A DNA stretch of 62,723 bases, filler included, from Globobulimina sp. (taxonomy: Eukaryota), in the NCBI GenBank assembly GCA_003354225.1. It is 10 parts of 10 records of this genome, joined end to end, with 100 filler letters (N's around TTAATTAATTAA, not from the genome) between each part and the next. Parts side by side here need not be neighbours in the genome. Positions count along the whole stretch, not along the records: positions 25,189 to 31,375 come from PIVH01000345.1; 9 more parts are not named here. One strand, given 5' to 3'. The notes beneath the pieces are model-generated. The model saw nothing but the letters and a program-made list of their open reading frames with translations. It made no database searches and was not told where the DNA came from. A program made the translations under genes and the position numbers. This document shows, piece by piece, positions 16,825 through 34,020 of this stretch; within the stretch, counting starts at the first letter, position 1; each line of letters opens with the position of its first letter.

Positions 16825-18793
16825 TTAACTTGTATTCAACATCGATTCAAATGGTTCATATTTCTCTCCTTGTTTTAATTTGAATAACTCCTTTTTCTCC
16901 CACTCTCTCCACCTGCTCGCGAATGAAACCTGTGGCAATTTGAACTTTGTCAAATCTTCGTCAAAATCATCGAATAAATCTAATAAGTCCGCTCCATTTG
17001 ATATCGCATTGAATTCTAAACATAAATCCAAATTTACTTCATTTAAATGCGGTATAATTAGCGATTCGTCAAAATATGATAGATCCACTTCATTTATTTC
17101 TAATTCGTCTTTTAAATCTAAATAAAACTCATTCGGATTGAATGACTTATTGATATTTGGTAATGTTTCTGTTATAACTAACGATGATTTCTCCTCTTCG
17201 GCGCTCATTGATATCTCGATATTATTTGCCACTGTCTCCGGTTCCCAAAATTCTCTGTTTTTTTGTTCTGTTTCTAATAACATATTATTTAAAATATTAT
17301 ATTCAATCCACGCCGTTTCATTTAATGATTCTGTCTCCGATAAACGCGATAAATCTGAGTTCAACTCCGAAATTGAACTAATTTTCTTGTTCTTGTTTTT
17401 AAAGAAAATATTTGCGTTTAATTCTATTTTTAACGCTTTAATCTCTTTCTCATTCTTCTTTTCTTCCTTTTTTAATACTTTTTCAATTCGCATCCATTCC
17501 TTTACTCTCATTTCTTTCTCATAATCAATCAAATCCTGCTCCACTTTCTTCGTAAAATCCCTTGAAAACGTTCCCGTATTATTTGCGTCTTTCCCACTAT
17601 TCATCCCATGCGAAATCGCGCAGAATTGTGTTTGGTAAAATATTTCTTCTTTGCACAATTTTGCTTCACCAACGAACCGATTTTCTCCTTTTACCTGTTT
17701 TAAAACAAATGATTTCATCAATTTTAATGGATTTCCTTTGTTTTGTAGATAGCACCGCGTCCCATCCAAGCCTAAAAAGTGTAAAACTTCGCCCGTATAA
17801 TTCTTCTTAATACTCTTCAAAATCAATGCCAATAAACCAATATTCTCCGAAATCTCTCCATTTGGGCCATAAAAATTATTCTCCAACAAACGCTCATACA
17901 CTTTCTCAATATCTTTGATATGCTCTCTCGTCCTCGTCTTGAATTGGCGATTGTAGCTTTTTCCTCTTCCACACTTTCCAATGTATGGTATACCGCAATT
18001 GTCACAAATAATTGCGTAGATTATGTCTCTTGAAAAGCACGATGATCTGTTACTTTTTACCGATTGTCCCGTCGTTACGCACTTCCATTTTTTCATATTT
18101 TGCATCGTTTCTGGGTATTCTCGGCAGGCACAATCCTCTCTTCCTTCAGTGACACCTAATTTGTTCAAAGTATCACAGTCCATAAATCCTTTCCATTTAT
18201 CTAAATTGTCCAAATTTATCTTATTTTTATCAATCATTATAAATTTGCCAATGTTGCAAAAATTTACTAACGCATCATTCATAAAATCTGATTTTTCATC
18301 AAAATCCAATTTAAATGTGTTTGGCGAAATGATTTGATCCAATTTATCATAGCATTTGTAACTAATTTTGAATTTTTCGATGGGAAAAATCGCAGCCAAT
18401 TTCGGATCTGTTCTAATCCAATTATTATACGCCATATTTAATAAATTGTAAATATTTGGTAAATTGTTGTGGTATTTCACCACAAACCAAAATAATTTGT
18501 CTTTTACTTTTTTCGCGATGATTCTTGATATATTTTCATCACTTTCTGACTCGATTTTTTCTTCTTTATTTTCTATCGGATTATCAAAATATTTTCGTTT
18601 TCGTTTTTGTCGGATATACCATGGTTTCGTCCATATTTTCAGCGCTTGTTTTTTTGATAATTTTTGAAATTTATTAAATACATTATTAACTTGCCAGACA
18701 TCGTGATCTCTCGCAATAAGAAAGCTTTTGTAATTTATAAATTGTTTTTCAATAAATTGATCGTCGCAAATACTGCGTATTCTCAATGCTGTC
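16825..18793 (-). CDS. PLE polyprotein C-terminal part (thumb, GIY-YIG, long acidic/coiled-coil tail), 5'-truncated
   Basis: 653-aa ORF running into the contig end. Confidence 0.85.
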
Positions 18794-19055
18794 NNNNNNN
18801 NNNNNNNNNNNNNNNNNNNNNNNNNNNNNNNNNNNNNTTAATTAATTAANNNNNNNNNNNNNNNNNNNNNNNNNNNNNNNNNNNNNNNNNNNNTTTCTCT
18901 ATTTAATTTTCGTATTTCATCTTTATGCGCTTTCAATTGCTCATCTTTTTTTTTCAATTGCGCCTTTAATTCTTTTATCTGTTCGTTAAGATGTTTTATT
19001 GTGGACATTATATTATATAATAAGATAATATAATTTTCTTAAGTAAATATTTGAT

Positions 19056-20255
19056 TTATTCTAAATCCCATACGTGGTTTTTAGCCATATCAACTATTTT
19101 TTTCTGCTTATATAAATGAATAGCTAATTCTTCGTCAAACCCACTTAAACCGGAGTTTAATATAAATTTTTCGTCATATGTGTCAGGAGCACGCGCCTTT
19201 AAAAATATTTGCTTTAATTTTTTTACAATATCTTCATCTTCAAATAATTCTTCTCGGCGGTAATTTTCAATAAAATCTTTAATTTTTGTATTCAAGAATA
19301 ATGCATTTTTTGGTGCATTATCACGCATTTCGGCTAATAATATATCTAATATTTTCGGCATCTCTTTGATAATCGCGGTCACTGTTGCTTTAAAATCATC
19401 GCGTTGCCACGATTTAGTGTCAGTAGTACCATTACTTATACTCAATTCGTATCTATTTATATTTTTCATAATCGCAGTCCTTAAATTAGGTGATATATAT
19501 TTTAATATTTGCAAGTTTAATATCGCTAACTTTATTGACGGGCTTTTATGGTTAAATAGCCGATAATATAATGATACGTAATTATCAATTTTGATGTCTT
19601 TAAACGCGATTTGTTTCATCGGTATTGTTGTTAATTGTTTATATTCATTAATCGGTGCTGGATATTTAGCGACATTAATTATAACAGTTCTATTTTCAGT
19701 TTGATTATGAGTATTATTAATGATTGTTGATTTATTTGCGAGCTTTTCATATAATTCAATGATTTTATCATCCTTCTCTTTTAATTGCTCTTTTAATTCC
19801 GATATTTCATTATTCTTTTCGGATAATTGAGAATCTTTATCTGTTAATTGGGCTTTTAACAGTTCAATCACGCCATCTTGGGATGAATGTGGTCTATCGT
19901 CACATTGGTGCAATTCATGTCTCCGGAGTGTTTTATTATTTTTATATGTTTTGCCACAATATTTACATTCAAACTCTTTAATTATTATTTTAGGATTGTC
20001 CTGGATTGTCCTAAATTGTCCTAAATTGTCCTCATTATTATTATTATTTAGTTCCTGGATGGTTCCTTTTGGTTCCTTTTGGTTCCTTTTGGTTCCTTCA
20101 TTATTATTATTATTATTATTATTATTTCCAGGAGATACCTTATCAACGTTTTTTGATACCTTATTAACGTTTTTGATATGTTTTTTACTCTTTATGTGCT
20201 TTTCAAGTGCTTGAGATGAGAAATATGAACGATTACAGACGTCGCAGTGAGTCAT
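19056..20255 (-). CDS. C2H2 zinc-finger/coiled-coil protein of giant-virus type (MIGE-like)
   Basis: CDVC..H..SKKH and CKYCGK..HELHQC fingers separated by a repeat-rich linker, then a coiled coil and an Asn-rich NNTHNQ..IINV segment; intronless. Confidence 0.7.
   Translation of the reverse strand: MTHCDVCNRSYFSSQALEKHIKSKKHIKNVNKVSKNVDKVSPGNNNNNNNNNEGTKRNQKEPKGTIQELNNNNNEDNLGQFRTIQDNPKIIIKEFECKYCGKTYKNNKTLRRHELHQCDDRPHSSQDGVIELLKAQLTDKDSQLSEKNNEISELKEQLKEKDDKIIELYEKLANKSTIINNTHNQTENRTVIINVAKYPAPINEYKQLTTIPMKQIAFKDIKIDNYVSLYYRLFNHKSPSIKLAILNLQILKYISPNLRTAIMKNINRYELSISNGTTDTKSWQRDDFKATVTAIIKEMPKILDILLAEMRDNAPKNALFLNTKIKDFIENYRREELFEDEDIVKKLKQIFLKARAPDTYDEKFILNSGLSGFDEELAIHLYKQKKIVDMAKNHVWDLE
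19996..20125. repeat. Coding microrepeats (ATTGTCCTAA-like x4, GGTTCCTTTT-like x4, ATT runs)
   Basis: Visible 10-bp tandem units inside the zinc-finger linker. Confidence 0.85.
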
Positions 20256-20354
20256 TGTTATAATAAAGAATATTATTTTAATTCTTAATATTATTTAAAT
20301 TTTAATATCTTATATTGATTCGTATTGTTATATGCAATTTATTATTGATTTAAG

Positions 20355-20455
20355 AAAAGAATATTCTTTTTGGATAAAATAATATTAATAATATTCTTTT
20401 TGGATAAAAGAATATTCTTTTTGGGAAAATAATATTCTTTTTCTGAAAATAATAT
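20355..20455. repeat. About 21-bp tandem repeat AATATTCTTTTTGGATAAAA (4 copies)
   Basis: Direct repeats upstream of the C2H2 ORF. Confidence 0.8.
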
Positions 20456-20594
20456 GGGTCACCGAAATATTACTGAAACGCTTATATCTTATATGTATAA
20501 TACATTACAATATGAATGCAATATAAGATAATCGGATATTTTCGGATATTTTTCCGGATTTCGTTAGGCCATATTATTTTTATTTTTTTTCTTT

Positions 20595-20628
20595 CCCCCC
20601 CCCCTTTAACCCCTTTCAGGGGGGGGGG
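20595..20628. repeat. C10-N14-G10 inverted repeat (hairpin)
   Basis: CCCCCCCCCC TTTAACCCCTTTCA GGGGGGGGGG in otherwise very AT-rich DNA. Confidence 0.9.
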
Positions 20629-20779
20629 TATATATTTTTTTCATGTGTTAATAATATAGAAAGAAATTTTAGGTTATATTATATTTTTAAGGGCGGCTAT
20701 TTCATATAGAGGTATTCACTCCGGGGCAATGGACGGCAATTGTATTTGTATTTAATGAAAATGATTATAATTATTTTCA

Positions 20780-21163
20780 CTAAGCGATATTGATATCGTA
20801 TAAACTCATATATTCATCAAGGGTGAGATAGTTTTCTTGGCGACGATCCATACATTCATCAATATGTTCATAAATATATTCTTCGCCTTGAAGATACATA
20901 AATACATATCTTTCAATTGCCTCGTCCATTTGAATATCTGCATCGATTTTATCATGAAAGATATAGTGAGTATGAATTGGGTGCATACTTTCATCTTCTT
21001 CTTCACTAACGGTTTTCAATATTACACAAACCATCTCATTGATATTTTTACATATTTTCTGCATATGCTCACGGTGTTCCATGGCATATTTCATATCCAA
21101 TATCTCTTTGGCAATATATTTTTCTTTAACTAATTCTATTAACTGATTATTAATTATATTCAT
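20780..21163 (-). CDS. Hypothetical protein (virus-like)
   Basis: 127-aa intronless ORF with AT-rich upstream context. Confidence 0.6.
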   Translation of the reverse strand: MNIINNQLIELVKEKYIAKEILDMKYAMEHREHMQKICKNINEMVCVILKTVSEEEDESMHPIHTHYIFHDKIDADIQMDEAIERYVFMYLQGEEYIYEHIDECMDRRQENYLTLDEYMSLYDINIA

Positions 21164-21208
21164 AGTATGTATATAATTAAGTAGATTTAAAACATTATTT
21201 TAAAATTA

Positions 21209-21709
21209 TCAATATATGCCGAATACATTTTCAAGGGAGCCCATGATTGCTCGTCTATCACTTCTCTTTATACAATATAAAAAACTTGATACGATTTTGG
21301 TTAGACCAAGTTCATAATTACGGGGCATTTTGTCATTAAATAATTCTCTAACGCTAAAGTGGATTTGTTTATAGTTTTTGTTTGCATTTGTGATAATTTC
21401 AATGGGCCGTAAATGATATTTATATAATACTGCTGCATTATCAGCAATTAACTTTGATTTATCGAAGTCGCCCTTTGCTCTTACAATATTTGTTTTAGTA
21501 TTATAGCAAATATTAAACATATAATTACCTTTATGGAATAAAGAGAATATTAGTATGTGAGGGTTATTTGTATGGTATGATACTGTAATATTATGACAAC
21601 CTGTGTCGCGATGGCAACATGCACCTACCATATTATCAAATAATTTACCAAACATATCCTCATTCATTTCTGTAAATTGGGTTTTGTTAATTTTGTATTT
21701 TTTGAACAT
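21209..21709 (-). CDS. Hypothetical protein (virus-like)
   Basis: ORF 21209-21802; the likely start is the ATG of MFKKYK at about 21709, preceded by TATATAATAAAG. Confidence 0.55.
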   Translation of the reverse strand: MFKKYKINKTQFTEMNEDMFGKLFDNMVGACCHRDTGCHNITVSYHTNNPHILIFSLFHKGNYMFNICYNTKTNIVRAKGDFDKSKLIADNAAVLYKYHLRPIEIITNANKNYKQIHFSVRELFNDKMPRNYELGLTKIVSSFLYCIKRSDRRAIMGSLENVFGIY

Positions 21710-21932
21710 CTTTATTATATAGTATATACAAATATAATAATTATCGCATTGTGAAATAAATAAATATAATATTGACTCAAATAGCATAGCTATTCTCGTC
21801 AAATTGCTTATCCAGATAATGCCATGTGCAATAAATAATATTAAAATTTATTTATATATTAGTTATAAATCATAACTATTCCTTCAACTAACCAATTGTC
21901 ACTTTAAAAAACCTTTTTTTAAACTAACACTC

Positions 21933-21981
21933 ATTAAACTACATTAAACTACATTAAACTACATTAAACTACATTAAACTA
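21933..21981. repeat. 10-bp tandem repeat CATTAAACTA (about 5 copies)
   Basis: Perfect tandem units just upstream of ATG 21999. Confidence 0.85.
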
Positions 21982-21998
21982 CAACACTTCTATATAAT

Positions 21999-22727
21999 AT
22001 GACTTCAAAACCATTAAACAAAATGTCAATCAAAGAATTGAAAGCATTATGCAAAGAGCATAAAATCCGCGGACATTCAAAATGTAAGAAAAAAGCTGAT
22101 TTAATTATATTCATTGAATCAAAATTGAATATGAATACTACACAATCACCAATAAGAAATCCACCAGCAGTTATTAAAGAAGCAACACCAACTCCCCCTC
22201 CAGCACCATTACCACAAACAATTGATACTGATGCATCTGGATTTGAAGATATGATACCAACAGAGCCTGAAACAGCTCAAGATTTAATAACGGAATTATT
22301 TGGATCCGATGATGAAGAAGAACCTATAGAAGAACCTATAGAGCAACCAGAAATAATTGAACAACCTATTGAACAACCAGAAATAATTGAAGAACCTATA
22401 GAAGAACCTATAGAACAACCAGAAATAATTGAAGAACCTATAGAAGAACCTATAGAACAACCAGAAATAATTGAAGAACCTATAGAACAACCAAAAATAA
22501 TTGAGCAACCTATAGAAGAACCTATAGAAGAACCAAAAATAATTGAAGAAGAAAATATCTTAGATGACTTAGATGACTTGATTGAAGATTATGCTGAGTA
22601 TAACAGAAGCGATAATAAGAAAAAATATAAACGTCCAATAAAAAGAGTTGTATTACAAGATACTTCCATTGAGACATTAGAAAAAGAATTAGCAAGACGC
22701 GGATATTCAATTGTGCTCAATCAATAA
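21999..22727 (+). CDS. Protein with an N-terminal HeH/Rho-N-like domain and acidic EEPI/EQPEII repeats
   Basis: LNKMSIKELKALCKEHKIRGHSKCKKKADLI matches the Rho-N/HeH pattern; coding repeats span about 22320-22545. Confidence 0.7.
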   Translation: MTSKPLNKMSIKELKALCKEHKIRGHSKCKKKADLIIFIESKLNMNTTQSPIRNPPAVIKEATPTPPPAPLPQTIDTDASGFEDMIPTEPETAQDLITELFGSDDEEEPIEEPIEQPEIIEQPIEQPEIIEEPIEEPIEQPEIIEEPIEEPIEQPEIIEEPIEQPKIIEQPIEEPIEEPKIIEEENILDDLDDLIEDYAEYNRSDNKKKYKRPIKRVVLQDTSIETLEKELARRGYSIVLNQ

Positions 22728-22873
22728 GTTATAGCGCAATTGGATTTATTTAAAGGGGGGTTACATGAAAACCTATAGGAGATTTCACCGAATCCATAAA
22801 ACGCCGAATGATTTCTTTTATTTAATGCGTAATTAACCCACGAATAATATAGTAGCATATAATATAAAAAAGA

Positions 22874-23374
22874 ATGTCGTTAAAAATCCAATCAGATATC
22901 GAATATGCACAAAAAATGTTAAAGAAATATGCAGATAGTTTAGAAAGGAATATTGTAGATTTAGAAAAAACCAAATCCGAAAAACAAAAAGTATATTTAG
23001 CCGGTAAAAAGATTAGAACTGAAGCACATATTGAAAAAACAAATGCTCGTATTGTACATTTAACTGAACGATTAGAAAAGAAAAGAATCCGTGTAGAGAA
23101 AGAAAAGAAACGTCTTGAGCGGAAAGAACAGAATAAAGATAAACCAAAATCGGCATATATGCAATTTATGAGTGATACATTTGATGCAGCAAAGATCACT
23201 GGTATTAAAGTAACAATGAGCGATGTTGCGAAAATGTGGAGTGACAAGAACCCAAAGAAAGAAACACCAAAGAAGGTATTAAAGAAGGTATTAAAGAAAG
23301 TACCGAAAGCGCCAGAAAATACATTAAACGGTTTTGTAACAGTTGTTGAAAAAGCCCAAGCAGTTCAGGTATAA
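22874..23374 (+). CDS. Basic coiled-coil protein with an HMG-box-like C-terminal domain
   Basis: KPKSAYMQFMSD...MSDVAKMW resembles HMG-box helices. Confidence 0.65.
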   Translation: MSLKIQSDIEYAQKMLKKYADSLERNIVDLEKTKSEKQKVYLAGKKIRTEAHIEKTNARIVHLTERLEKKRIRVEKEKKRLERKEQNKDKPKSAYMQFMSDTFDAAKITGIKVTMSDVAKMWSDKNPKKETPKKVLKKVLKKVPKAPENTLNGFVTVVEKAQAVQV

Positions 23375-23444
23375 ATGGATATTAAATGATATAAATGGAT
23401 ATTAAAAAATTATAATATTATGAATAAGTTGATTTCGCAAAGCT

Positions 23445-23478
23445 TATTGACGGAGCTCGCACGCGAGCTGAGTCAATA
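23445..23478. terminator. Intergenic hairpin, candidate transcript 3'-end signal
   Basis: TATTGAC-GG-AGCTCGC-AC-GCGAGCT-GA-GTCAATA between two co-directional genes; Mimiviridae transcripts are known to end in hairpins. Confidence 0.5.
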
Positions 23479-23531
23479 TTATAATTCCATAAAAACTTGT
23501 TAAAATTTATTATGTATTGTAATAATATAAG

Positions 23532-23993
23532 ATGAATACTGTACAAATTAAAATTAAAATCGCATTCGCGTCAAACGAATCATTCAAAACATTTTGTAAA
23601 GATTATAAGGAACGTAGTCATTTAGATCGTGGGTCATATGAGATATTTTTTTACTACAATGGTAATGGGTTAATATTTAATACTGCAGAACTATCTGAGT
23701 GTGATGTTGATGAGGATATGAATCATTTTGAGTTTAGTGGTGAATTTTGTTTAAGCAACGGGGATGTATTTGGGCAGATTATGTGTTTTTCCGAATATTT
23801 AAAGGAGTATTCAATTGAAAAATGTACGGTTGTTGAGCAGAATTGCACGCATGAGATATCACATGATGTTCGGTACGAAAACAAAGTGAATGAGCATTTA
23901 GATTTTATGCTTCGAAATAATGATAATCATATATGTGGCATGATTACTGGGTATAATGAGCCAAAATACGTAATAAAAACCGTGGTGTATTAA
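23532..23993 (+). CDS. Hypothetical protein (virus-like)
   Basis: 153-aa intronless ORF. Confidence 0.6.
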   Translation: MNTVQIKIKIAFASNESFKTFCKDYKERSHLDRGSYEIFFYYNGNGLIFNTAELSECDVDEDMNHFEFSGEFCLSNGDVFGQIMCFSEYLKEYSIEKCTVVEQNCTHEISHDVRYENKVNEHLDFMLRNNDNHICGMITGYNEPKYVIKTVVY

Positions 23994-23999
23994 AATTGA
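23992..23999 (+). promoter_or_regulatory. AAAATTGA mimivirus-type early promoter motif
   Basis: Exact octamer about 50 nt upstream of ATG 24046. AT-rich context makes a chance occurrence possible. Confidence 0.5.
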
Positions 24000-24045
24000 A
24001 TAAAAATTGTATTGAAAATATTATAATATATAACTATATAGTATA

Positions 24046-24654
24046 ATGTTGTGTTCGATTTGTTTAGATTGCATCGATGTTGATTCAAATTGTGTATCGC
24101 TTGAGTGTAAGCATAAGATACATCTGGGGTGTTATAATAGTTTAATATTTAGTAATATAAATAACCATAAGTGTCCATTGTGTCGTGGAAAGATAGATGT
24201 GCCCGAGAAGGTTGAGAATAATTTTAATGAGATATTAAGGGCAATGAATGGGCTTGCGATAGGGCGTGAGCGGCCTCGGCGAATGATGCCGAATGTTTCA
24301 CTGCGGTTTCGAACAAGTGATTTAGTAGATACTGGGTTATTTACCGATGTGGCAGGTAATTCGGTGCTATTCAATCGAAGAAATATGATGGTTATAATGA
24401 CGCATCTTGAGAACCGTATAGATATATTGAATGCTCGCCATAGATTTAATAGGAATAATATAGCATCTTTGATGTTGAGGATAATGACGCCATATACATT
24501 ATATACTGAGGTTGAATTGCGTAATATAGTGTCATCTGCGTATCCAGATAGATCCCAGAATAACATCAATACCGGGATTGACCGAATACTTCAAAATAAT
24601 TACATGGTGTATATGGTACAGCCTGAGTTTTCGGGGTATGTGTTTTTTGGTTAG
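24046..24654 (+). CDS. RING-H2 finger protein (putative E3 ligase)
   Basis: CSIC..C-K-H-KI-H-LG-C..CPLCR at the N-terminus. Confidence 0.85.
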   Translation: MLCSICLDCIDVDSNCVSLECKHKIHLGCYNSLIFSNINNHKCPLCRGKIDVPEKVENNFNEILRAMNGLAIGRERPRRMMPNVSLRFRTSDLVDTGLFTDVAGNSVLFNRRNMMVIMTHLENRIDILNARHRFNRNNIASLMLRIMTPYTLYTEVELRNIVSSAYPDRSQNNINTGIDRILQNNYMVYMVQPEFSGYVFFG

Positions 24655-25076
24655 ACATGTATGGTGTCTCGGTATAATTTTGCGGCGAGTTTCATATTCA
24701 TTTCACGGTCTTCGGCTTTTGCGTCAGCGTATGTCTGCTTAATGAACTTTTGGTATGTGGTTAATGGTTTTTTTGGGCGTGATGCTTTGCGTGCTTTGCG
24801 TTTTTCTAATTTTTCTTTCTTTAGCTTTTTTGTGATTAACAATTCAATTTTGGAGTCTGTTTTTGAGATTTTCGTTTTTAATATAGTAATTTTGTTTGGT
24901 ATAGATGCTTTCATATTGGCTGAATTGGTTTTTTCTAATTTTTCTTGTAAATAAGATAATTTTACTAATAGTTTGTCTTTTTTTGTGGTCTGTTTGTTAA
25001 TATCTGTTTGGACTTTTTGAGATGCTTGAGATGCTTGAGATGCTTGAGATGCTTGAGATGCTTGAGATGCTGACAT
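24651..25076 (-). CDS. Basic coiled-coil protein with an HMG-box-like end (paralogue-like to 22874) and SQA repeats
   Basis: KKPLTTYQKFIKQTYADAK..MKLAAKLY; the 9-bp repeat GAGATGCTT (about 6 copies, 25019-25070) encodes (SQA)n. Confidence 0.65.
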   Translation of the reverse strand: MSASQASQASQASQASQASQKVQTDINKQTTKKDKLLVKLSYLQEKLEKTNSANMKASIPNKITILKTKISKTDSKIELLITKKLKKEKLEKRKARKASRPKKPLTTYQKFIKQTYADAKAEDREMNMKLAAKLYRDTIHV

Positions 25077-25188
25077 GATTTTTATAATNNNNNNNNNNNN
25101 NNNNNNNNNNNNNNNNNNNNNNNNNNNNNNNNTTAATTAATTAANNNNNNNNNNNNNNNNNNNNNNNNNNNNNNNNNNNNNNNNNNNN

Positions 25189-25202
25189 GAATCGGGTTTC
25201 GG
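25189..25202 (+). repeat. 14-bp terminal redundancy (second copy at 31362-31375)
   Basis: GAATCGGGTTTCGG occurs at both contig ends. Confidence 0.92.
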
Positions 25203-25263
25203 TCCATTAGTTGTCTAGACCCGATACAGAGCACTGGTCAGGGGGACCTCGTCAGTAGACAAC
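25191..25263 (-). ncRNA. Hammerhead ribozyme with non-circularly permuted strand order
   Basis: Minus strand reads GTTGTCTA-CTGACGA-GGTCC-(18 nt)-ATCGGGT-C^TAGACAAC-TAAT-GGACC-GAA-ACCCGAT. Stems I (8 bp), II (5 bp) and III (7 bp) are all perfect; core CUGACGA/GAAA/GUC; predicted cleavage between 25218 and 25217. Confidence 0.88.
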
Positions 25264-25385
25264 CTGCCAGGCATCTTACCTATGTACTAAAAAACACTAA
25301 AAAACGGCATACTAATACGTTAGATAAAAATCTACTCTCAAAATATTGGGCAAAGTTTTTTATAAAAATTAAAATTAAAAATTAC

Positions 25386-25457
25386 TTCAATCTGTGTTGT
25401 TACCTCTTCATCTTCCTGTTCCTCTTCACGAGGTCGCTTGGTCTGTTCACGAGGCAT
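25386..25457 (-). CDS. Predicted first exon of ORF1 (MPREQTKRPREEEQEDEEVTTQIE)
   Basis: ATG at 25457; phase-0 donors at 25403 (AG|GTAACA) and 25385 (AA|GTAATT); matching phase-0 acceptor at 30433 across the junction. Confidence 0.55.
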
Positions 25458-25630
25458 ATTAAATAAACAAAAAAGACCCAAATAATAGAGAAAAATTAAA
25501 AATATTAAAATAAAAACTTTTTTTGTTTCTCGGCCCGAGTGCCTCAGCACCCGTACTTATTGGTCATGATCTGAAAACAATGGAAATTCTAATGACTGAT
25601 ATCTAGATATTTTTGACAAGTTATTATTTT

Positions 25631-25704
25631 AAGACCACTGACAAAAGTCAGCAATAAGACCACTGACAAAAGTCAGCAATAAAGACCACTAGCAAAGCCA
25701 GTAA
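25631..25704 (-). repeat. Hairpin repeat array 2 (3 copies, 25-26 bp period)
   Basis: Plus strand: AAGACC-ACTGAC-AAAA-GTCAGC twice, then AAGACC-ACTAGC-AAA-GCCAGT. Confidence 0.9.
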
Positions 25705-25852
25705 TAGATTTATGATATGTTAAAATTTTGAAGCATTAAATTTTGATTTGTTTTCAGTTCACGTAAATTTAGTATGATACTGAGACTTTTAATATTAGGA
25801 CCTTTCTTTATTGCAAATTTACTAATTTACGTTGCACCTTAACAACGCCTTG

Positions 25853-28800
25853 TTAGGCAATATGAGAAATACAGAAGTTGGCAATTTTTTGTTTATTATC
25901 CAGTTTAAATTTTAGCAATAATGTACTATAAATGGTAGCAAATTTGTAGAAGGTATGATATAAGCTAGCTTTATTATATCCGTTTTTAAGCAAGGTATGT
26001 ATCAGCTGTCCAACCCTTGGTGAAAAATCGTTAAAATTATTGCAAATTCTAGCAATTCTTATTAATTGTGTATAGAAGACCTTGTATCCCATAGATGTAT
26101 GTACATTGCTGTTTGCAAATCCATATCTAACCACATGGAAATTGAAGTCATCCGTTTTGTTATATACTGCTATTCTATGTTTACCAGGGTTAACACACAC
26201 CAATATATCAAGAAAACAACTTTCATATTTTGACTTAGCTGTATTTTCAAGTGGTAAGCAGTTTGGATAAATAAGCTTAGCATATTCTAGGAATTTATCA
26301 CAATTAATTGAAAGAATATCATCTATATACCTAATTGTATGACTAATTGATTTGGCTATAGTTTTGTTATTAATGTCTGTGAGAAAATCGTATTCCAGCA
26401 TACTTAACACAAGGTCTGCAATCAAAGGACTAGCATTACCGCCCATAGGTACACCACATATTTGTTTAAATAAGAACCCAGCAAATTTGACGTACGTTTC
26501 ATCAATAACATTATTAATAAGGCATTTAATGTCAATGTTGTCTAGCATTGCTATGTAATTGCTTTTGACTTGATCAGCATAATATACATTATTATAAGTA
26601 ACAATTACATATTTTTTATTAGAATGTCCAAATAGTAAATCCACAAGTTTGAACAACTGTTTTTTAATAATTTCATGTGGAAACATTGTATATAAAGCAC
26701 TAAAATCTGCAGTACATATGCTTTGCAGTTGATTAGCTTGCACTTTATGTTCTATTTTTCTATGTGCTTCCAAACTACCTTTAATTGACCAGTAACAGCT
26801 ATGCCCTTTCCTTTTGCTAACTGTGCCACAATATTTTTCGAAATGTTGTTGAAAATGTGCTAAAACTCGATGTAATATTATAGACATTGGTTTAGTTGAT
26901 GAATTACGAGCACCTGCTATAAATCGGAATTTGTATGGATTTTTATGTAATTTGGGTGTTGCGAATATAACAGGAAGGTTTTCGTCCTCTGTTTCGAATT
27001 TGATAAGTCCTGTTTGTGCTGTTAGAAGTTTGTGTTTATCAATAAGTTTATTTTCATCAATGTCACAAGGTTTATAGACATCATTGCCAACTACAGTACA
27101 AGTTCCATTATTATCAATATTGACACCAAGTTCTTTACACATAATTTCAATATAATATTTTTTACAAATAAATATGAAATTATTGCTTGCTTTATCTGCT
27201 GGTGCAATGACAAACTCCTTCTGTAAACGTAGCAATTCCATTTGACTTTCTTCTTGTGACAAACAAGAAACCATTCTTGTATTTCTTATATTCATTGACA
27301 GAAATTTGATTCTATTATCGACAATATTTGCATAAAGCTTTATGTATTCCTCTGTAGCCAAGGTAATGTCAACATATCTTCGAATTTTTGCATATGTCTT
27401 CTTGATATATTCGTCAACGACTTCCATTGCCACTTTTCTAACTTCAGTCCAATCAAATGTTTTCGGCTCTCGAAACTTGGCTCCCTTACCAAAAAGTTTT
27501 CTGAGTTTTATATCTTTAATTATATTTAAATCACCTGTAATAACATGTCCACATTGACTATAGACAAATTTAGATGTTGTACAATTACAGTGGTTATTTG
27601 CAAAATTATTTAATTCATTATTTTGCAATGTTTTAAGTGTTTTATTATAATTAAACAATTTACGACTAATAGGTGTTTCATATTTATATGTGATAATGGG
27701 TACATCTGATTTTTTATTATTAATGGAAATTCTTTTTCGTAATCTTCGGTCCTTGAAAATGGTTTCTAATTTCAGAAGTTCAATACCCTTATTTGGATAT
27801 CTAGCAACTACAATAATGCCTTTAGATTTATTGATAGTTTTATTGTTACAACCATAATATCCCGCCATATATGCTTGTGTTGCAAGTTTTGCATCTCCAT
27901 GCCAATGATCCAGGTTACCAGATTGTATGGTTTGATTAAGGAACAGTAAATTCTTTTTCGACAAAGATCGTAAGAATATATATAATTTCCGTCTATCAAA
28001 CAAGCCATCTGAACAGTCAATGTTACGTTTTGTTTTATTGATGATATCAGGATCAAGTTTCTTTGCTGTTCGCTTCTTTTTTCTATTTCTATTTCGTCTA
28101 GTAGATGGTAATGGTTTAGTAAAATATGGTTGTGTTGATTTGGATGCAGGGTCAATTCCACATGATACATCTCCATAGCACTTGATTCTATCATTCATAC
28201 CATAAGGAAAAGCTGTATTTAGTTGCCGAATCCAAAAATCTTCAACATTTTCACATTCCTTTCTATTTTTAGTTTTATCTGTAGATATAGGTATAGTTTC
28301 TATAATCTGCACTTGTAGATCGTTAACATTATGCCCAGTTTTATTAAAATGTTGAACTAAGTAAGTATTAGTTTCATTTTTCTTAATAGAATAAACATGT
28401 TCAGCAATTCTTTCTTTGAGTTTTCTAATAGTTTGCCCCACATATTGTAATTTACATTTTTGGCATGTGATAAGATATACTACATTTTTTGTGTTACAAT
28501 TTAATTGAACTTGATCTGTGCATGCTGTATATTTACTATTAGTAATAGTGCTATTTATATGTTGTTTTTCTTTGACATATTTACAGCAACTGCATCTATT
28601 TCCGCAGCATTTTTCTGTGTAATTACCAGTTGTATTATTATCATATATTTTAGCAGTAAAAGTAATTTTATTATTTTGATCAGTTTGTTTTGTGTATATA
28701 AAACGTGCTCCTTCCAGAAATCTTCTTGGATGACTAGAAACACTCAGCCCATCCCACATAGCATGTGCTCCGGCACCACTGTGAAATGAAGATGGTGTTA

Positions 28801-28870
28801 CAGAGGGTTCGCCCCCGGTGATTTTACAACCCATCCGGGGAAACGGGCGGGTCTCTAATTGTACTTCCAT
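25853..28870 (-). CDS. PLE ORF2: N-terminal GIY-YIG endonuclease plus reverse transcriptase (Naiad-like)
   Basis: EN: CCGNRCSCC, KNVVYLITCQKCKLQYVGQT, RIAEH, EDFWIRQLNTAFPYGMN. Linker: CNC..GHVITGDL, KGAKFREP. RT: PADKASNN, PKLHKNPYKFRFIA, DFSALYT, GVPMGG, RYIDD, FLDI, YNKTDDF. Intact 1005 codons; the true start is uncertain. Confidence 0.95.
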   Translation of the reverse strand: MEVQLETRPFPRMGCKITGGEPSVTPSSFHSGAGAHAMWDGLSVSSHPRRFLEGARFIYTKQTDQNNKITFTAKIYDNNTTGNYTEKCCGNRCSCCKYVKEKQHINSTITNSKYTACTDQVQLNCNTKNVVYLITCQKCKLQYVGQTIRKLKERIAEHVYSIKKNETNTYLVQHFNKTGHNVNDLQVQIIETIPISTDKTKNRKECENVEDFWIRQLNTAFPYGMNDRIKCYGDVSCGIDPASKSTQPYFTKPLPSTRRNRNRKKKRTAKKLDPDIINKTKRNIDCSDGLFDRRKLYIFLRSLSKKNLLFLNQTIQSGNLDHWHGDAKLATQAYMAGYYGCNNKTINKSKGIIVVARYPNKGIELLKLETIFKDRRLRKRISINNKKSDVPIITYKYETPISRKLFNYNKTLKTLQNNELNNFANNHCNCTTSKFVYSQCGHVITGDLNIIKDIKLRKLFGKGAKFREPKTFDWTEVRKVAMEVVDEYIKKTYAKIRRYVDITLATEEYIKLYANIVDNRIKFLSMNIRNTRMVSCLSQEESQMELLRLQKEFVIAPADKASNNFIFICKKYYIEIMCKELGVNIDNNGTCTVVGNDVYKPCDIDENKLIDKHKLLTAQTGLIKFETEDENLPVIFATPKLHKNPYKFRFIAGARNSSTKPMSIILHRVLAHFQQHFEKYCGTVSKRKGHSCYWSIKGSLEAHRKIEHKVQANQLQSICTADFSALYTMFPHEIIKKQLFKLVDLLFGHSNKKYVIVTYNNVYYADQVKSNYIAMLDNIDIKCLINNVIDETYVKFAGFLFKQICGVPMGGNASPLIADLVLSMLEYDFLTDINNKTIAKSISHTIRYIDDILSINCDKFLEYAKLIYPNCLPLENTAKSKYESCFLDILVCVNPGKHRIAVYNKTDDFNFHVVRYGFANSNVHTSMGYKVFYTQLIRIARICNNFNDFSPRVGQLIHTLLKNGYNKASLYHTFYKFATIYSTLLLKFKLDNKQKIANFCISHIA

Positions 28871-28891
28871 GATTGAAGATGAAATGAAACT

Positions 28892-28965
28892 GTCAAGATG
28901 AATGAAACCATATATTGGTCTTGAGTCAAGATGAATGAAACCAAATATTGGACTTGTGTAAGATG
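28892..28965. repeat. About 33-bp tandem duplication GTCAAGATGAATGAAACCA(T/A)ATATTGG(T/A)CTTG
   Basis: Two near-identical copies plus a partial third, just 5' of ORF2. Confidence 0.8.
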
Positions 28966-29177
28966 TTGAAGTATACTGATAGAAAGAAACTATGTGTATT
29001 AGACAAATTATAAGACTAGATGTCAGTAATAAATGTTTACTGACTCCAAGTATTATTCTATTTACTACGGAAGGAGAAGATACTTAAACATTATTTTTAT
29101 AATGCATGGTATGAATTGAATGTACATATGAATATGTGTGGAAATAAATGTAGTGTTAAATAAGATTGTAAACAATA

Positions 29178-29450
29178 ATAAGAACCACTGTCATATGACA
29201 GTAACCGGACTATATCATTAGCCAGAAAATAAGACCACTGTCATAAGACAGCAATAGGATAATATCATATGCCAAAACATTGGACCAATATCAGAAGTTA
29301 GTAATATTGCCACTATCATAAGATAGTAAATAAGACCACTGTCAAAAGACAGCAAAAGAGTAATATAATATGCCAGAACATTAGACCACTGACCATAAAT
29401 AAGACCACTGTCATAAGACAGTAAATAAGACCACTGTCAAAAGACAGTAA
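29178..29450 (-). repeat. Hairpin repeat array 1 (about 8 hairpin units interspersed with a second ~25-nt unit)
   Basis: Stems at 29187, 29237, 29312, 29338, 29407 and 29433 (ACTGTC-N4-GACAG[T/C], ACTATC-ATAA-GATAGT) plus degenerate copies; spacer unit G(G/A)NTA(A)TAT(C/A)AT(A)TGCCAGAA(C/A)AT three times. Confidence 0.9.
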
Positions 29451-29796
29451 ATGAACTATTGTAAAACCAATAAAATGTAATGAAATTCGAAGCAGATGAA
29501 TAGACACTTATTTGAAGATGTGAAATTATTTGATTTCAATGCAGATGTTAGTTTCTGGAAGGTTGAATGTATAAAAGAAAAAATCAAAAAAGAAAATCCA
29601 AAAAATTATTTTGTCGACGAAACTGGAAAGTACGATGAAAATTGGATGATTGCGAAATAGTTACAGTATCCTATGTTAACCATTGGCCCTGATATTTGTG
29701 ATAAGCAGGGGTCTTGAAACGAAAATATTGGCGAAAAATTTAAATTTTTTCACCAACATTTAATAACACGCATCAAAACCTAAATTTATCACAATA

Positions 29797-30432
29797 TCAC
29801 TCATTTGTAGAAGGGGCCGTTTCTGGTTTTCCATAGTCGATTGGGTTGGAAGGAAAATCTTTGTAGTGCTTAGCAGGAAGATCTCCTATGGCCATCTTGT
29901 TATATCCTATGAATTTTGCCTTAAATCCAGCATTTTTGTATGCTTCAACAACAGCATTTCTCTTTTTCTTTTCTTGTTGCTCCTTGAATGGTAAATCATT
30001 TTGTACGGAGACATTTTTATACTTTTGACCTAATCCTTGACATGGTGCCCAATGATGAAGATTTTTCTTAAGAGACATAATAAAACCACGATCCGATCGA
30101 CGAGTGAATGCAACTATGAACCCAACTGGAAGCTCATGAATGATGTCGACATGTGTGAGGATTTGATCAACTATATCTGGATCCATTCGAAGACCATCGA
30201 CACAGAGAAAGCGAAAAACTGATTCATAATCATTTTTGGTGATCTTGTTTTCTTTGAAAAGATGATCTTTATCAAGACCAAAAATACGAATATTATGTCC
30301 CCTGGTGACTTTTTCAAGACCATGTATAAGTTGATCGTGTTTTTCTTGTATTTGATGTACATCCTTGACTTCGGTTTTAAGTCGTTTAATCTCCTGTTCG
30401 AGTTTGTCAATGCGTTTCGTATTCATTGAAAC
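29797..30432 (-). CDS. ORF1p-like protein (coiled coil, RRM, CTD; LINE L1/CR1 ORF1 type), main exon
   Basis: Heptad N-terminus, then LEKVTRGHNIRIFGL (compare LE..SR..N(I/L)RI.G(I/L)), FIVAF and VSVQNDLP..Q..KK. Preceded by a branch-like TACTAAA and a TCTTCCAG acceptor (AG at 30434-30433). Confidence 0.75.
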   Translation of the reverse strand, partial: VSMNTKRIDKLEQEIKRLKTEVKDVHQIQEKHDQLIHGLEKVTRGHNIRIFGLDKDHLFKENKITKNDYESVFRFLCVDGLRMDPDIVDQILTHVDIIHELPVGFIVAFTRRSDRGFIMSLKKNLHHWAPCQGLGQKYKNVSVQNDLPFKEQQEKKKRNAVVEAYKNAGFKAKFIGYNKMAIGDLPAKHYKDFPSNPIDYGKPETAPSTNE

Positions 30433-31475
30433 CTGGAAGATTTAGTAAATGGTTTTTATTATGGATATTATGTAAAAACAAGTGTATAAGATAATTTTAA
30501 GTTGCAGCAATGTATATAAAAAGCAATGTTTGTAATAGTGGAAAAGTACTAATTACTATATGCCAATGTATGTATTGTATAGAACGAAAATTTTGTTTTG
30601 TACAGTAAATATGATTAAGAGTATAACTAAAATGGTACTTTTAATATATGGAATTTTAACTTGTATTGTGTATTTACTAATGGTATTAGGGACTATGTAT
30701 GAGTTAATGTGGTATGAACTATATGTTGTAGAGTATGGTACCAGTCTTGAATGGTATGATGCAGGTAACGACTATATAGTTATTGAATTTTATATAAAAT
30801 TGAAGCAAAGTTGTTATTTTTATTATTTTTAAATTGAAATGTATGGATTATAATTATGTAACACTAAATGTAGAAGTATTAATAAATATTAATTATAAAA
30901 TTGAGAGAATTGAAGAATTTTGATAGGTGAAAAAGTTTATTATATTTTAATTTGATATGAGTGAGTAAAATAAGATTGTTACTGCATAGTATAAATAGTA
31001 AAGATCATCCACCCTTGTTAGGGTCGAATTTCTATACTATTTTTTCAAAAATTTTTTGTTTTTATATTATTATAATATATGTACAATTTTAAGCAAACCA
31101 AATTTGGTAACGAAAAATAGCTGCTTGACAGCCAATAGGTAATAATGATAGATTGTATGTGAACTAGGGAACTTTTAGAATAAGATAATTTGTTTAACAG
31201 CGAAAAGCTAGCTAGTTACCTTGGAGCGGGCAGGCCTCTCCTCACAAGGACCAGCTAGTAGATGTAATAAAATTATATTAAATGAAAAACAAATAAAAAG
31301 GCCGTATTATAAACAGTAAAGGAAATCTGTCCCTGTACCTAAGGCAATTCTACTCCTATCTGAATCGGGTTTCGGNNNNNNNNNNNNNNNNNNNNNNNNN
31401 NNNNNNNNNNNNNNNNNNNTTAATTAATTAANNNNNNNNNNNNNNNNNNNNNNNNNNNNNNNNNNNNNNNNNNNN

Positions 31476-34020
31476 ACGGGATGGTCGCCCGTCACCATAA
31501 TCACTTTGATACCGGCCGATTGACAGCGGCTCACTGCTTCCGGCACGCCGGGGCGCGGCGGATCGATCATGGCGTATAAGCCTATAAACACTAAGCCTTC
31601 TTCCTCGTGGTTGCGGTTAAAGGGCCAGGTCAGTTCCTCTGCCTTGGTGCCACTGAACGTGTACGGCCCTTTCAATAAATGTATCAAACTGCCGCGTTTG
31701 ATGCCGACTTCCAAGAACGAGTTGTCCGGCTCGATCATGCCGAAGTCGCTGAAGCCAATACGTTGCGTCGCCATTGGCATATTGCGCAATTCCGCCTCGA
31801 TGGCCGCATGTAAATGGCGAATAAATAACTTCTCAAATGGGATTTTCTCGCCTTCGTCGTCCGTCGCATTCAACATGATTTTGATCTTTTCGCCTTCGTA
31901 CGCCACGATCACCGCATCTTCGTTGGCCTCGGCGCACGATTCGTCCACTTCGTCGTCATACTTCTGCTCGATGACAGGTTCCATGATGTTGACGTCGTAA
32001 ATGGTGGCATCCAACACCAACTCCGCCAACGCCAACACACGTTCGCCGCGCGCACCTAACGACATCACGCCGTTCAAGACGGTGTCGCGAACCTCGTCGG
32101 TGAGGTCAATCACCTCATCGTCAAACAAATAGCGATCGCATAATTCCAAAATGCGTTCCGGAGCGCCTTTCATTTGCACGAAACAGCGCCTTTCTTTGTC
32201 GCCGTCGTCATAGCCATCGATCTTCACTTCGTTCTCTAATAACATATCCTTCGGCAACTCGTGCACCGACACTTGCCATTTGTTGGTGGAATTGAAGGGA
32301 ATCTCGTGTAATTTGACGTGCTTCGTGCGGGATTCTGGTATATTGATACGATACTCAGCCACGACATGGCCCGCAGAGAACTTCACCATGGCCGCTTCCG
32401 TGGCATTCGCCGTGGGGTCCACTGCCCCGTCGATGAAACCTGCGTTGTTACACAAGGCGCCGCAACGAACCAATTTGAGGAAATCGTTATGGCGCACTTT
32501 GGCATTATCCTTCTTATAAAAATCGCCCAATAACGCGGCCTGCGGATTGTCCGTGTCACACTCGCACTCTTTCAGGTTGTAATAAACGTGCTGACACGTC
32601 ATCACATTGGTGGTCAACGTGCCCGTTTTGTCGCTGCAAATCACCGACGTACTGCCCAGCGTCTCCACGCTCTCCAGATTCTTGACTCGCACATTCTTAT
32701 CAAACATGCGTCGCGCCGTCAAGGTCAGCGACACCGTCACCGTCGCCAACAGCCCCTCGGGCACATTGGCCACAATGATGCCAATCAAAAAGATGACATT
32801 GCGGATGAACGGCGTCTCGTTCACGAAAAAGCCGATGGCGAAGAAGGAGACCCCAAAAGCGATGGCGATGGCCGACACTTTGATCACGAAGTCCTTGATC
32901 TCCTTCGCAATGGGCGTGTCTTCGCCCTCCGTGCTGGCCGCCAACTGGGCCGTGCGTCCCATGAATGTGTTGTCGCCCGTCGCGATTGTAACGCCTCGGC
33001 CCTTGCCGTTGATGATCAACGTGCCGAAGAACAACAAGTTGGACGCCTCGCGAGGGATATCGTCACAAGCTTTATTGTCGCGTTTGCACGGTTCAGACTC
33101 GCCGGTCAATGACGAATTGTCCACTTCCAAATCGGGCGTGGCGGAGATTACGCGAATATCGGCCGGGATGGCCATACCGAGAGTCAACTCGCATATGTCA
33201 CCGGGTACCAATTCGCGAGGATCGATGGATCTTTTGTACCCGTCGCGAGTCACGATCACGTTGGACGGCTTCATGGAGGATAAGGAACCCATCAAATCCG
33301 CAGATTTGCTCTCTTGATAGAACTCGAACGAGCCGGATAAGGTCACCACGCCGGACAGCACGAAGCCTAAATACAAGTTGGTGATGTCGGAGCTGTCGAT
33401 GCCGTACGAGAACCAGCACAAAACGGCTCCGCCCCAGAGCAGGATGTTGAAAAAGCCACCAAATACAGATTTGAGATAGCGCAGCCAGACTGGGTCGTGC
33501 TTGGGAGGGGTCAGTTCGTTGTAGCCGAGCAAGAGGAGCTTCTCCTGGACTGCTGCGGTGGTTAGGCCTTCGGTCAAATGGGTCGAATATTCTATTTCTA
33601 ACTCATCCAATTCTAAGGTATGGGCGACGGTCGTGTAGGCTTTTTTGAGTTCGAGAACGCCCTGTTTTTTGGAGATGCGACCTTTGGCCACACGGCGTTG
33701 CACACTGTCTTTGGCCATAGATTCGCGATGCTTTAAGGCCTCAGCGGCGATGGTGATGCTGCTGGTTCTGCGGTCGATGGAGCGACCGCCAGAGCTTCGA
33801 TATGATTTGAATTGGCCTTGCTGGTTTGGTGGCGGGTTAGAAATTGCATGGTGTATTGTTGTATTTTTATATTAGGGATACGTACGTGGGACGGATGTAA
33901 TAATGGTGTTTTCATGCCGCCTCTGCTGTGTGACGTCATTTGAGCGCCTGCAAGCCGTTTATCCATTGCCTCGAGAGCGCCTGATTGTGCAGAAGCAAAG
34001 CTTGTATCTTCTTCCGACAT
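31476..34020 (-). CDS. P-type ATPase IIC (Na+/K+- or H+/K+-ATPase alpha-like), 3'-truncated
   Basis: ATG at 34020; intron 33885..33821 (phase 0). Motifs VDNSSLTGESEP, IVANVPEGLL, CSDKTGTLT, FNSTNKWQ, MKGAPE, GERVL, IDPPR, MVTGDHP. Confidence 0.95.

What the first reader, a model, noticed from the sequence alone, without database searches (positions are those of the whole stretch)
29797..30432. LINE-type ORF1p (coiled coil-RRM-CTD) encoded in a Penelope-like element
Seen: a heptad coiled coil followed by LEKVTRGHNIRIFGL, FIVAF and VSVQNDLP, the motif order of L1/CR1-type ORF1 proteins, co-oriented upstream of the PLE ORF2. Known: ORF1p is the trimeric RNA chaperone of non-LTR retrotransposons, and canonical EN+ PLEs lack it. 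Inference: module capture across retroelement classes.
Basis: partly seen in the sequence, partly recalled or inferred. Interest (0 to 1): 0.72.

Follow-up and report, generated by a model that had tools for sequence, protein, structure and literature searches.

The report
Penelope retroelement carrying LINE-type ORF1 protein
A jumping gene of the Penelope type, normally a one-gene element, here carries a second gene shaped like the RNA-packaging protein of LINE-1 elements plus a rearranged self-cleaving RNA motif, which points to parts being shared between two very different classes of retroelement.

Summary
Confirmed and extended. The ORF (29797-30432, minus) has the L1 ORF1p fold: a profile of 17 relatives hits human ORF1p (E 1.4e-7), and the model matches 2yko at Z 11.9, rmsd 4.0, 182 residues. 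It is under purifying selection (dN/dS 0.08). It belongs to a 6,173-nt head-to-tail unit whose ORF2 is a Naiad-type Penelope-like protein (N-terminal GIY-YIG, then RT). The same gene order recurs in a diverged family of this genome, in two partial cases, and in a distant contig (L041: ORF1 28%, ORF2 39%), so it is not a nested LINE scrap. Additions: a conserved mini-exon in the element's 3' repeat predicts splicing onto ORF1 across the tandem junction, and that intron holds a non-circularly permuted (type-CSG) hammerhead with covariation. By eye, six published nematode Naiads end in the same ribozyme, which would explain their reported lack of canonical hammerheads. Not shown: the donor and direction of capture, expression, splicing, cleavage, RNA binding, host. 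This scan noted the same kind of element on another piece of this genome (e1-7350160). New variant of a known kind.

The parts
29797..30432 (-). ORF1 main exon: coiled coil (model residues 2-42), RRM and CTD of L1-ORF1p fold; internal ATG at 30426
   Evidence: dN/dS 0.08 vs C337
25386..25457 (-). Predicted ORF1 exon 1 (24 codons, KRPRE basic patch then acidic run), phase-0 GT donor at 25385; in a tandem or circle it lies upstream of the next unit's ORF1
   Evidence: same exon and donor in C337, C4416, C32137; more synonymous than non-synonymous change, p<0.01 in 4 of 6 pairs; splicing inferred, no RNA evidence
30433..31263 (-). 5' non-coding part of the unit = 3' part of the predicted 1,126-nt intron, ending in the acceptor AG at 30433
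   Evidence: AG acceptor in register in 4 of 4 own-genome ORF1 5' ends examined and both L041 copies; 75% match to C337; intron length
25853..28870 (-). ORF2, 1,005 aa: Zn-finger, GIY-YIG endonuclease with CCHH, KR block, CxC, GxKF, DKA, RT (Naiad type)
   Evidence: Pfam GIY-YIG E 3.2e-6 N-terminal to RVT_1 E 3.2e-4 (below its cut-off); motifs; dN/dS 0.10
25191..25264 (-). Type-CSG (non-circularly permuted) hammerhead ribozyme; core starts 25255, predicted cleavage after 25218
   Evidence: descriptor hit with stems 9/5/6 bp, 0 of 300 shuffled contigs; covariation over 11 sequences; cleavage not tested
31264..31375 (-). 3' terminal stretch of the element (follows the ribozyme across the contig's 14-nt end overlap); element end at 31264
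   Evidence: 5 of 10 matches stop at this point, followed by unrelated flanks; loose ends at 31263 and joint 31361>25189
29163..29455 (-). Array of small hairpin repeats between ORF1 and ORF2
   Evidence: function unknown
25608..25721 (-). Related hairpin repeats in the 3' UTR of ORF2
29710..29731 (-). 22-nt motif conserved downstream of ORF1
   Evidence: 4 of 5 own-genome pattern hits lie after an ORF1 relative, the fifth (C41086) is unrelated; control 0

Best explanation
A two-gene Naiad-type Penelope-like retrotransposon of about 6.2 kb. SHOWN: ORF1 has the coiled coil-RRM-CTD fold of L1 ORF1p, is conserved by selection and is linked to an EN-RT ORF2 in diverged families; units sit head to tail; short 5'-truncated copies share one 3' end and lie in unrelated DNA; a type-CSG hammerhead structure lies about 100 nt before that end. 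INFERRED: transcription starts in the 3' repeat (pseudo-LTR) of the upstream unit; the mini-exon is spliced over the ribozyme and the junction onto ORF1, giving a 235-aa protein with a basic leader; ORF1p trimerises and coats or chaperones the element's RNA as in L1; ORF2 nicks DNA and copies the RNA by target-primed reverse transcription; the ribozyme trims unspliced multimeric RNA to unit length. The ORF1 module most likely came from the non-LTR retrotransposon pool into one Naiad sublineage long ago and can still be exchanged between subfamilies.
For: Profile to human ORF1p E 1.4e-7 over CC, RRM and CTD start. Model pLDDT 90.9; all 10 Foldseek PDB hits at E<=0.001 are L1 ORF1p; 2yko_A is the only chain of 48,161 at Z>=8 (Z 11.9, rmsd 4.0, 182 aligned). 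Trimer model 0.78 against best control 0.25 (mark reached by 21 of 30 solved pairs and 0 of 23 single chains; runs share 100% of contacts, pLDDT >=82; may be from memory of the solved L1 trimer). Linkage: C337 colinear at 82.6% nt; C27393+C9404 by a 42-nt end overlap; C9096 reads ORF2 end, ribozyme, junction, start of an ORF1-like frame (23 codons, by eye); L041 ORF1-ORF2-ORF1'. dN/dS 0.08-0.21. C33145 lacks the internal ATG and L041 ORF1 has no in-frame ATG after the acceptor, as expected if an upstream exon supplies the start. Several distant ORF1 relatives begin with a KRP/KR-acidic leader. Ribozyme: 93.8% of cells paired, 8 of 19 pairs with two-sided change, 0-2 of 500 shuffles as high.
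Against: No RNA or protein data: expression, splicing, cleavage and RNA binding are untested. No relative reaches Pfam Transposase_22 (0 of 17 members); identity to human ORF1p is about 15%. The donor is unknown and the fold also occurs in FP25K. ORF1 is about twice as diverged as ORF2 at four-fold sites between C345 and C337 (0.51 of 61 vs 0.26 of 275), so the two ORFs do not share one simple history, or the assembly is mosaic. Most ORF2 relatives have no known context (13 of 18 rows in the clade). A ribozyme in an intron could block splicing if fast. Tandem array and circle cannot be told apart for C345.
Confidence: 0.75

Rival explanations
1. ORF1 is an integral gene, but it did not come from a LINE: the CC-RRM-CTD module is older than the split of retroelement classes or came through a shared pool (including DNA viruses), and other Naiads lost it or were curated from 5'-truncated copies.
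For: ORF1-linked elements fall on both sides of the first split of an 18-row ORF2 group (SH-aLRT 99, quick tree); nearest Atlas clusters are unnamed or FP25K-like (0.91-0.93); ORF1 relatives form their own small family (13 hits in 1.84 billion, one spurious).
Against: None of 54 published Naiad entries is annotated with an ORF1 and their consensi are 2.4-4.8 kb; wide occurrence of this ORF1 type in LINEs is recalled, not tested.
Confidence: 0.25
2. The 6.2-kb unit exists mainly as an extrachromosomal circle (DNA or RNA-derived), with ORF1p as its coat and the ribozyme processing rolling-circle transcripts; chromosomal pieces are by-products.
For: C345 and C337 each close on themselves (14- and 119-nt end overlaps); the junction is crossed in two runs, one of another study; several relatives lie on contigs of about 6 kb.
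Against: Head-to-tail tandems give the same picture and are typical of Penelope-like elements; L041 holds two ORF1 copies 93% identical in tandem; dispersed 5'-truncated copies lie in unrelated flanks.
Confidence: 0.1
3. The ORF is a LINE fragment nested by chance upstream of a one-gene Naiad.
For: ORF1 is more diverged than ORF2 between two families; 2 of 5 own-genome ORF1 contigs are too short to show ORF2.
Against: Same order in C337, C27393+C9404, C9096 and L041; purifying selection; its first exon lies at the far end of the element; no other ORF over 128 aa in the unit and no A-run over 6 nt after ORF1.
Confidence: 0.02

Closest known systems
Naiad clade of Penelope-like elements (Craig et al. 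2021, PMC8557442)
   Same: N-terminal GIY-YIG with CX2-5CxxC and CCHH, KR block, CxC, GxKF, DKA, RT; tandem units, 5' truncation; no canonical hammerhead.
   Different: 6.17 kb with two ORFs against 3.4-4.4 kb with one; spliced ORF1 predicted; hairpin arrays; the ribozyme is present in permuted form (and by eye also in six of their nematode consensi).
L1 (LINE-1) ORF1p, PDB 2yko/2ykp/2ykq
   Same: Coiled coil, RRM and CTD in the same order and fold; trimer modelled; upstream of an EN-RT gene.
   Different: About 15% identity, below Pfam Transposase_22 detection; short coiled coil (about 6 heptads); partner is a GIY-YIG Penelope-like RT, not an APE-type LINE ORF2; no poly(A) end.
Penelope-like elements with other upstream ORFs: Athena/Coprina coiled-coil ORF1, Chlamys-2/-5_cBra gag-knuckle ORF1, esterase-bearing Penelope-like elements
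   Same: An extra ORF upstream of, or beside, a Penelope-like RT; module sharing between retroelement classes (PMC8557442, PMC13159263, PMC3905857, PMC5408684; passages).
   Different: None of the passages read describes a CC-RRM-CTD protein; Athena and Coprina lack the endonuclease.
Baculovirus FP25K
   Same: Same fold (Foldseek E 2.6e-4, TM 0.52; Atlas clusters with PF25298 in 13-60% of members).
   Different: A viral gene outside any retroelement.
Type-CSG hammerhead ribozymes (Eckert et al. 2023, PMC10085705)
   Same: Block order CUGANGA - cleavage site - GAAA, stems I-III, extra helix joining stems I and II.
   Different: That paper found two natural sequences, none in a genome of a known organism, and its main text links none to retrotransposons; here the motif is a fixed part of a retroelement end.

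Membership tests
Naiad Penelope-like elements | GIY-YIG endonuclease N-terminal to RT | tested here: met
   PF01541 at 200-290, PF00078 at 714-924 of P0002 (RT match below its cut-off)
Naiad Penelope-like elements | CX2-5CxxC finger and CCHH motif in the EN region | tested here: met
   motif scan; the two histidines read from the translation
Naiad Penelope-like elements | CxC, GxKF/Y, DKA motifs and KR block | tested here: met
   (window and L041); KR block read
Naiad Penelope-like elements | Tandem/pseudo-LTR structure and 5' truncation | tested here: met
Naiad Penelope-like elements | No canonical hammerhead | tested here: met
   no hammerhead family among 4 Rfam matches at E<=5; the motif found is permuted
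Naiad Penelope-like elements | Insertion-in-fingers domain; RT tree placement with named Naiads | not tested
Naiad Penelope-like elements | Single ORF, 3.4-4.4 kb (typical description, not the paper's diagnostic) | tested here: not met
   6,173-nt unit, two ORFs: hence filed as a variant
L1-type ORF1p (fold level) | Coiled coil, RRM, CTD in order | tested here: met
   model 1-203 aligns to 2yko 113-315, Z 11.9, rmsd 4.0, 182 residues
L1-type ORF1p (fold level) | Homotrimer | tested here: inconclusive
   model 0.78 vs best control 0.25 (21 of 30 pairs, 0 of 23 single chains reach the mark); may be from memory of the solved trimer
L1-type ORF1p (fold level) | RNA binding and nucleic-acid chaperone activity | not testable with these tools
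   pI 9.2, 36 K+R is only compatible
Pfam Transposase_22 (PF02994) | Score over the curated cut-off | tested here: not met
   not listed for any of 17 members or 13 relatives; so a fold-level homolog, not a Pfam member
LINE (non-LTR) element | APE or restriction-like endonuclease with non-LTR RT, poly(A) end | tested here: not met
   ORF2 has GIY-YIG; no other long ORF; longest A-run after ORF1 is 6
Type-CSG hammerhead | Core nucleotides, block order C-S-G, stems I-III with covariation | tested here: met
   7 sites by strict descriptor, 0 of 300 shuffles; (related sequences can beat shuffles; slid controls 18-46% paired vs 94%)
Type-CSG hammerhead | Helix joining stems I and II | tested here: met
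   6-11 bp in 8 of 9 sequences; in the window copy the longest perfect helix was 5 bp and the expected one is bulged
Type-CSG hammerhead | Site-specific self-cleavage | not testable with these tools
   needs an in vitro assay

The most novel reading that the evidence does not exclude
An old Naiad sublineage uses an L1-type trimeric RNA coat, and its full ORF1 can be made only from tandem or circular templates, because the first exon sits at the element's 3' end and the intron spans the junction. The intron's slow permuted hammerhead sets a splice-or-cleave choice between ORF1 mRNA and unit-length template RNA. The same type-CSG ribozyme is a standard 3' feature of many Naiads, making retrotransposons the main natural home of this rare RNA topology.
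Probability: 0.3. Interest if true: 0.85.

Novelty: new variant of a known kind. Interest (0 to 1): 0.7.

Why it matters
Endonuclease-bearing Penelope-like elements are described as single-ORF elements, and how they package their RNA is unknown. A conserved L1-type ORF1p in one lineage ties the RNA-packaging module of LINEs to the telomerase-related retroelements and gives a direct test: does ORF1p do the same job for a GIY-YIG element? The ribozyme answers two published loose ends at once: Naiads with hammerhead core halves 35-50 nt apart that fit no descriptor (PMC8557442, methods), and type-CSG hammerheads known from only two sequences with weak covariation (PMC10085705).

Tried and rejected
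Single-protein Pfam and PDB searches: nothing significant. Rfam: no hammerhead model matches; 4 chance hits. Related loci: none in metagenome contigs or viral contigs; one in genome contigs. Longer (fused) ORF1 forms: none among 7,775 candidates of 477-2,000 aa, weak evidence. PF02994 in the own genome: 0, but the control was silent too, so uninformative. Distant ORF1 queries found only the four known own-genome copies. Sequencing runs: no RNA holder listed; X1 may be the source sample and is not independent; depth was not used. P0014 (Sushi repeats) dropped from alignments as spurious. P0006 (ORF1) and P0027 (ORF2) both list a 6,067-nt contig: suggestive only, context not seen. The careful ORF2 tree did not finish; the quick tree is used loosely and its label test is not relied on. 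MAFFT misaligned stem II of L041, so undercounts it. No target-site duplication was evident in three short copies. PMC12440569 held nothing relevant. Host lineage not determined.

Full report
Setting. The window is ten contigs joined by N linkers; the finding lies in G000:C345, window 25189-31375. On the minus strand it holds a 214-codon frame (30441-29797) and a 1,076-codon frame (29083-25853, first ATG 28870); no other frame exceeds 128 codons.

ORF1 is a real L1-ORF1p-fold gene. Alone it matches nothing significant in Pfam or the PDB. Five own-genome contigs encode it or relatives (6 matches, 9 candidates scored; 54-100% over the main matches), and 13 of 1.84 billion cluster representatives match at E<=0.001, one of them spurious. 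A profile of 17 sequences hits human LINE-1 ORF1p at E 1.4e-7 across coiled coil, RRM and the start of the CTD (again with 22 sequences). The AlphaFold2 model (pLDDT 90.9) returns L1 ORF1p for all 10 Foldseek PDB hits at E<=0.001 (best TM 0.62) and for the only chain of 48,161 with Z>=8 (2yko_A, Z 11.9, rmsd 4.0, 182 residues). Among viral models the four hits at E<=0.001 are one unnamed protein, two FP25K/few-polyhedra proteins and one entry labelled lef9. Three copies fold as a coiled-coil trimer, score 0.78 against a best control of 0.25 (mark reached by 21 of 30 solved pairs and 0 of 23 single chains; runs agree in all contacts, pLDDT >=82; alignment not used; the pass may be from memory of the solved trimer). 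dN/dS is 0.08, 0.08, 0.21 and 0.09 in four pairs, saturated in the fifth. No member reaches Pfam Transposase_22.

ORF2 is Naiad-type. GIY-YIG lies N-terminal to RT, with the Zn-finger, CxC, GxKF and DKA motifs that Craig et al. give as diagnostic (PMC8557442, Results part 1). Forty-one relatives were found at E<=1e-30 among 8,000 scored candidates, best 39% identical.

ORF1 belongs to the element. C345 ends overlap by 14 nt and C337 ends by 119 nt, and the two are colinear circular permutations of one unit (82.6% nt). Contigs of two runs cross the joint 31361>25189, giving 6,173 nt; one run may be the source sample, the other is from another study. C337 reads ORF2 end, ORF1, ORF2. A decayed third family joins ORF1 (C27393) to ORF2 (C9404) by a 42-nt end overlap, and C9096 runs from an ORF2 end through the ribozyme into 23 codons of an ORF1-like start, read by eye. 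Two ORF1 contigs (C33145, C15793) end before ORF2; C15793 keeps the spacer motif and hairpin repeats. Outside this genome, L041 (6,050 nt, filed in a bacterial assembly; such misfiling of Naiads is noted in PMC8557442) reads ORF1, Naiad ORF2, second ORF1 copy, at 28% and 39% identity to the window's proteins; its two ORF1 copies are 93% identical with dN/dS 0.13. In a quick tree of 33 ORF2s, the window's group and L041 fall on either side of the first split of an 18-row group (SH-aLRT 99); 13 of those rows have no known context. Against a simple history: four-fold sites differ at 0.51 (61 sites) in ORF1 but 0.26 (275 sites) in ORF2 between C345 and C337, which suggests exchange of 5' modules, homogenised ORF2, or a mosaic assembly.

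Ends. Of 10 own-genome matches to the ribozyme region, five stop at the point equal to window 31264 and continue into four distinct flanks; three are pieces of 70-234 nt with unrelated DNA on both sides. That is the 5'-truncated pattern of retrotransposed copies and places ORF1 inside the unit's termini.

A first exon at the far end. A short exon with a KRPRE patch and a phase-0 GT donor lies at 25457-25386 and in C337, C4416 and C32137; synonymous change exceeds non-synonymous at p<0.01 in 4 of 6 pairs. A more distant family (C8290, ORF2 46%) has an RGG-rich exon ending likewise. The three C3330-like ends examined gave no hit to the exon pattern. An AG acceptor precedes ORF1 in register in all 4 own-genome 5' ends examined and both L041 copies; C33145 has lost the internal ATG. 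Splicing across the junction would remove 1,126 nt in both C345 and C337 and give 235 aa without stops. This is inference; no RNA run was available.

The ribozyme. At 25264-25191 the hammerhead blocks come in the order CUGANGA, cleavage site, GAAA, which is type CSG of Eckert et al. (PMC10085705, passages and section 15), who found two natural examples, both cleaving slowly (0.004 and 0.03 per min). A strict descriptor found 7 sites in the loci then held and 0 in 300 shuffled contigs. A core pattern gave 17 own-genome hits against 4 for its control; by reading, 12 are such ribozymes (one cut by a contig end), 2 look decayed and 3 are chance. Over 11 sequences 93.8% of cells pair, 8 of 19 pairs change on both sides, and slid controls pair at 18-46% (related sequences inflate the shuffle test). 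Craig et al. report Naiads with core halves 35-50 nt apart that fit no descriptor (section 20); spacers here are 43-54 nt. In their File S5, read by eye only, the ends of Naiad-1, -2, -3_Nbra, Naiad_Hcon, Naiad_Hpol and one Pristionchus Naiad all form type-CSG structures; the other core-word passages listed for Naiads did not obviously do so and most of the 54 consensi were not examined. The ribozyme is therefore not tied to ORF1.

How it most likely works. Shown: anatomy, fold, selection, linkage, ends, ribozyme structure. Inferred from the L1 and Penelope models (pseudo-LTR promoter and multimeric RNA: PMC11167929 passages; 5' intron in Penelope and Chlamys-3: PMC8557442): transcription from the upstream repeat, splicing to make ORF1p, a trimeric coat on the element RNA, nicking and target-primed reverse transcription by ORF2, trimming of unspliced RNA by the ribozyme. 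Confidence 0.75. Capture from a LINE is the likeliest origin but has no donor or root behind it.

What is in print. Nine searches showed no paper describing a CC-RRM-CTD ORF1 in a Penelope-like element or type-CSG hammerheads in retrotransposons; most listed papers were seen as listings only, and the library lacks most subscription journals and repeat-database reports. In the Craig supplement, 'ORF1' occurs twice, both for Chlamys of Chara with a gag-like knuckle. Precedents for other extra ORFs: coiled-coil ORF1 (figure legend; PMC13159263 passages), esterase in Penelope-like elements (PMC3905857 passages), shared modules in Athena (PMC5408684 passages). The bioRxiv retrozyme paper (10.64898/2026.07.22.740005; abstract and passages) does not address this; its supplements are closed. 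The supplements of PMC10085705 were not read and may give the context of its two CSG sequences.

Verdict. Real; a new variant of the Naiad kind, interest 0.7.

Noticed in passing
window 7718-12550 (+): 1,610-codon frame that reads like a second Penelope-like protein with RT and C-terminal GIY-YIG and two Cys/His-rich N-terminal repeats; no Pfam match.
   Followed up: no
window 16825-18837 (-): 3' part of another Penelope-like protein with C-terminal GIY-YIG and a long acidic tail; no Pfam match.
   Followed up: no
window 18894-25088: Gene-dense, apparently intronless contig with C2H2 finger, RING-like and lysine-rich ORFs and a peptide repeat; looks like large DNA virus or Polinton-type DNA (impression only).
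   Followed up: no
PMC8557442 File S5 (Naiad-1/-2/-3_Nbra, Hcon, Hpol, one Pristionchus Naiad): 3' ends form type-CSG hammerheads by eye.
   Followed up: partly
L045 and L048 (G000:C3350, C9226): Repeat with a hammerhead core half and the long outer helix but no complete stems; possibly a decayed or non-autonomous relative.
   Followed up: no
L053 (G000:C14382): Type-CSG ribozyme within what looks like a short tandem repeat unit with no ORF2 match; possible retrozyme-like non-autonomous element.
   Followed up: no
L021:1842-1979 (G000:C8290): RGG-rich mini-exon with phase-0 donor upstream of a CSG-like ribozyme in a more distant family.
   Followed up: partly
window 29163-29455 and 25608-25721: Related small hairpin repeats on both sides of ORF2, with family-specific variants in other copies; role unexplained.
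   Followed up: partly
P0034, P0038: Naiad-like ORF2 relatives of 1,218 and 1,348 aa carrying PF00443 (ubiquitin hydrolase) in the precomputed annotation.
   Followed up: no
window 31424-33871 (-): P-type ATPase gene at about 53% GC against about 30% in most contigs: the assembly may mix organisms, so the element's host is uncertain.
   Followed up: no
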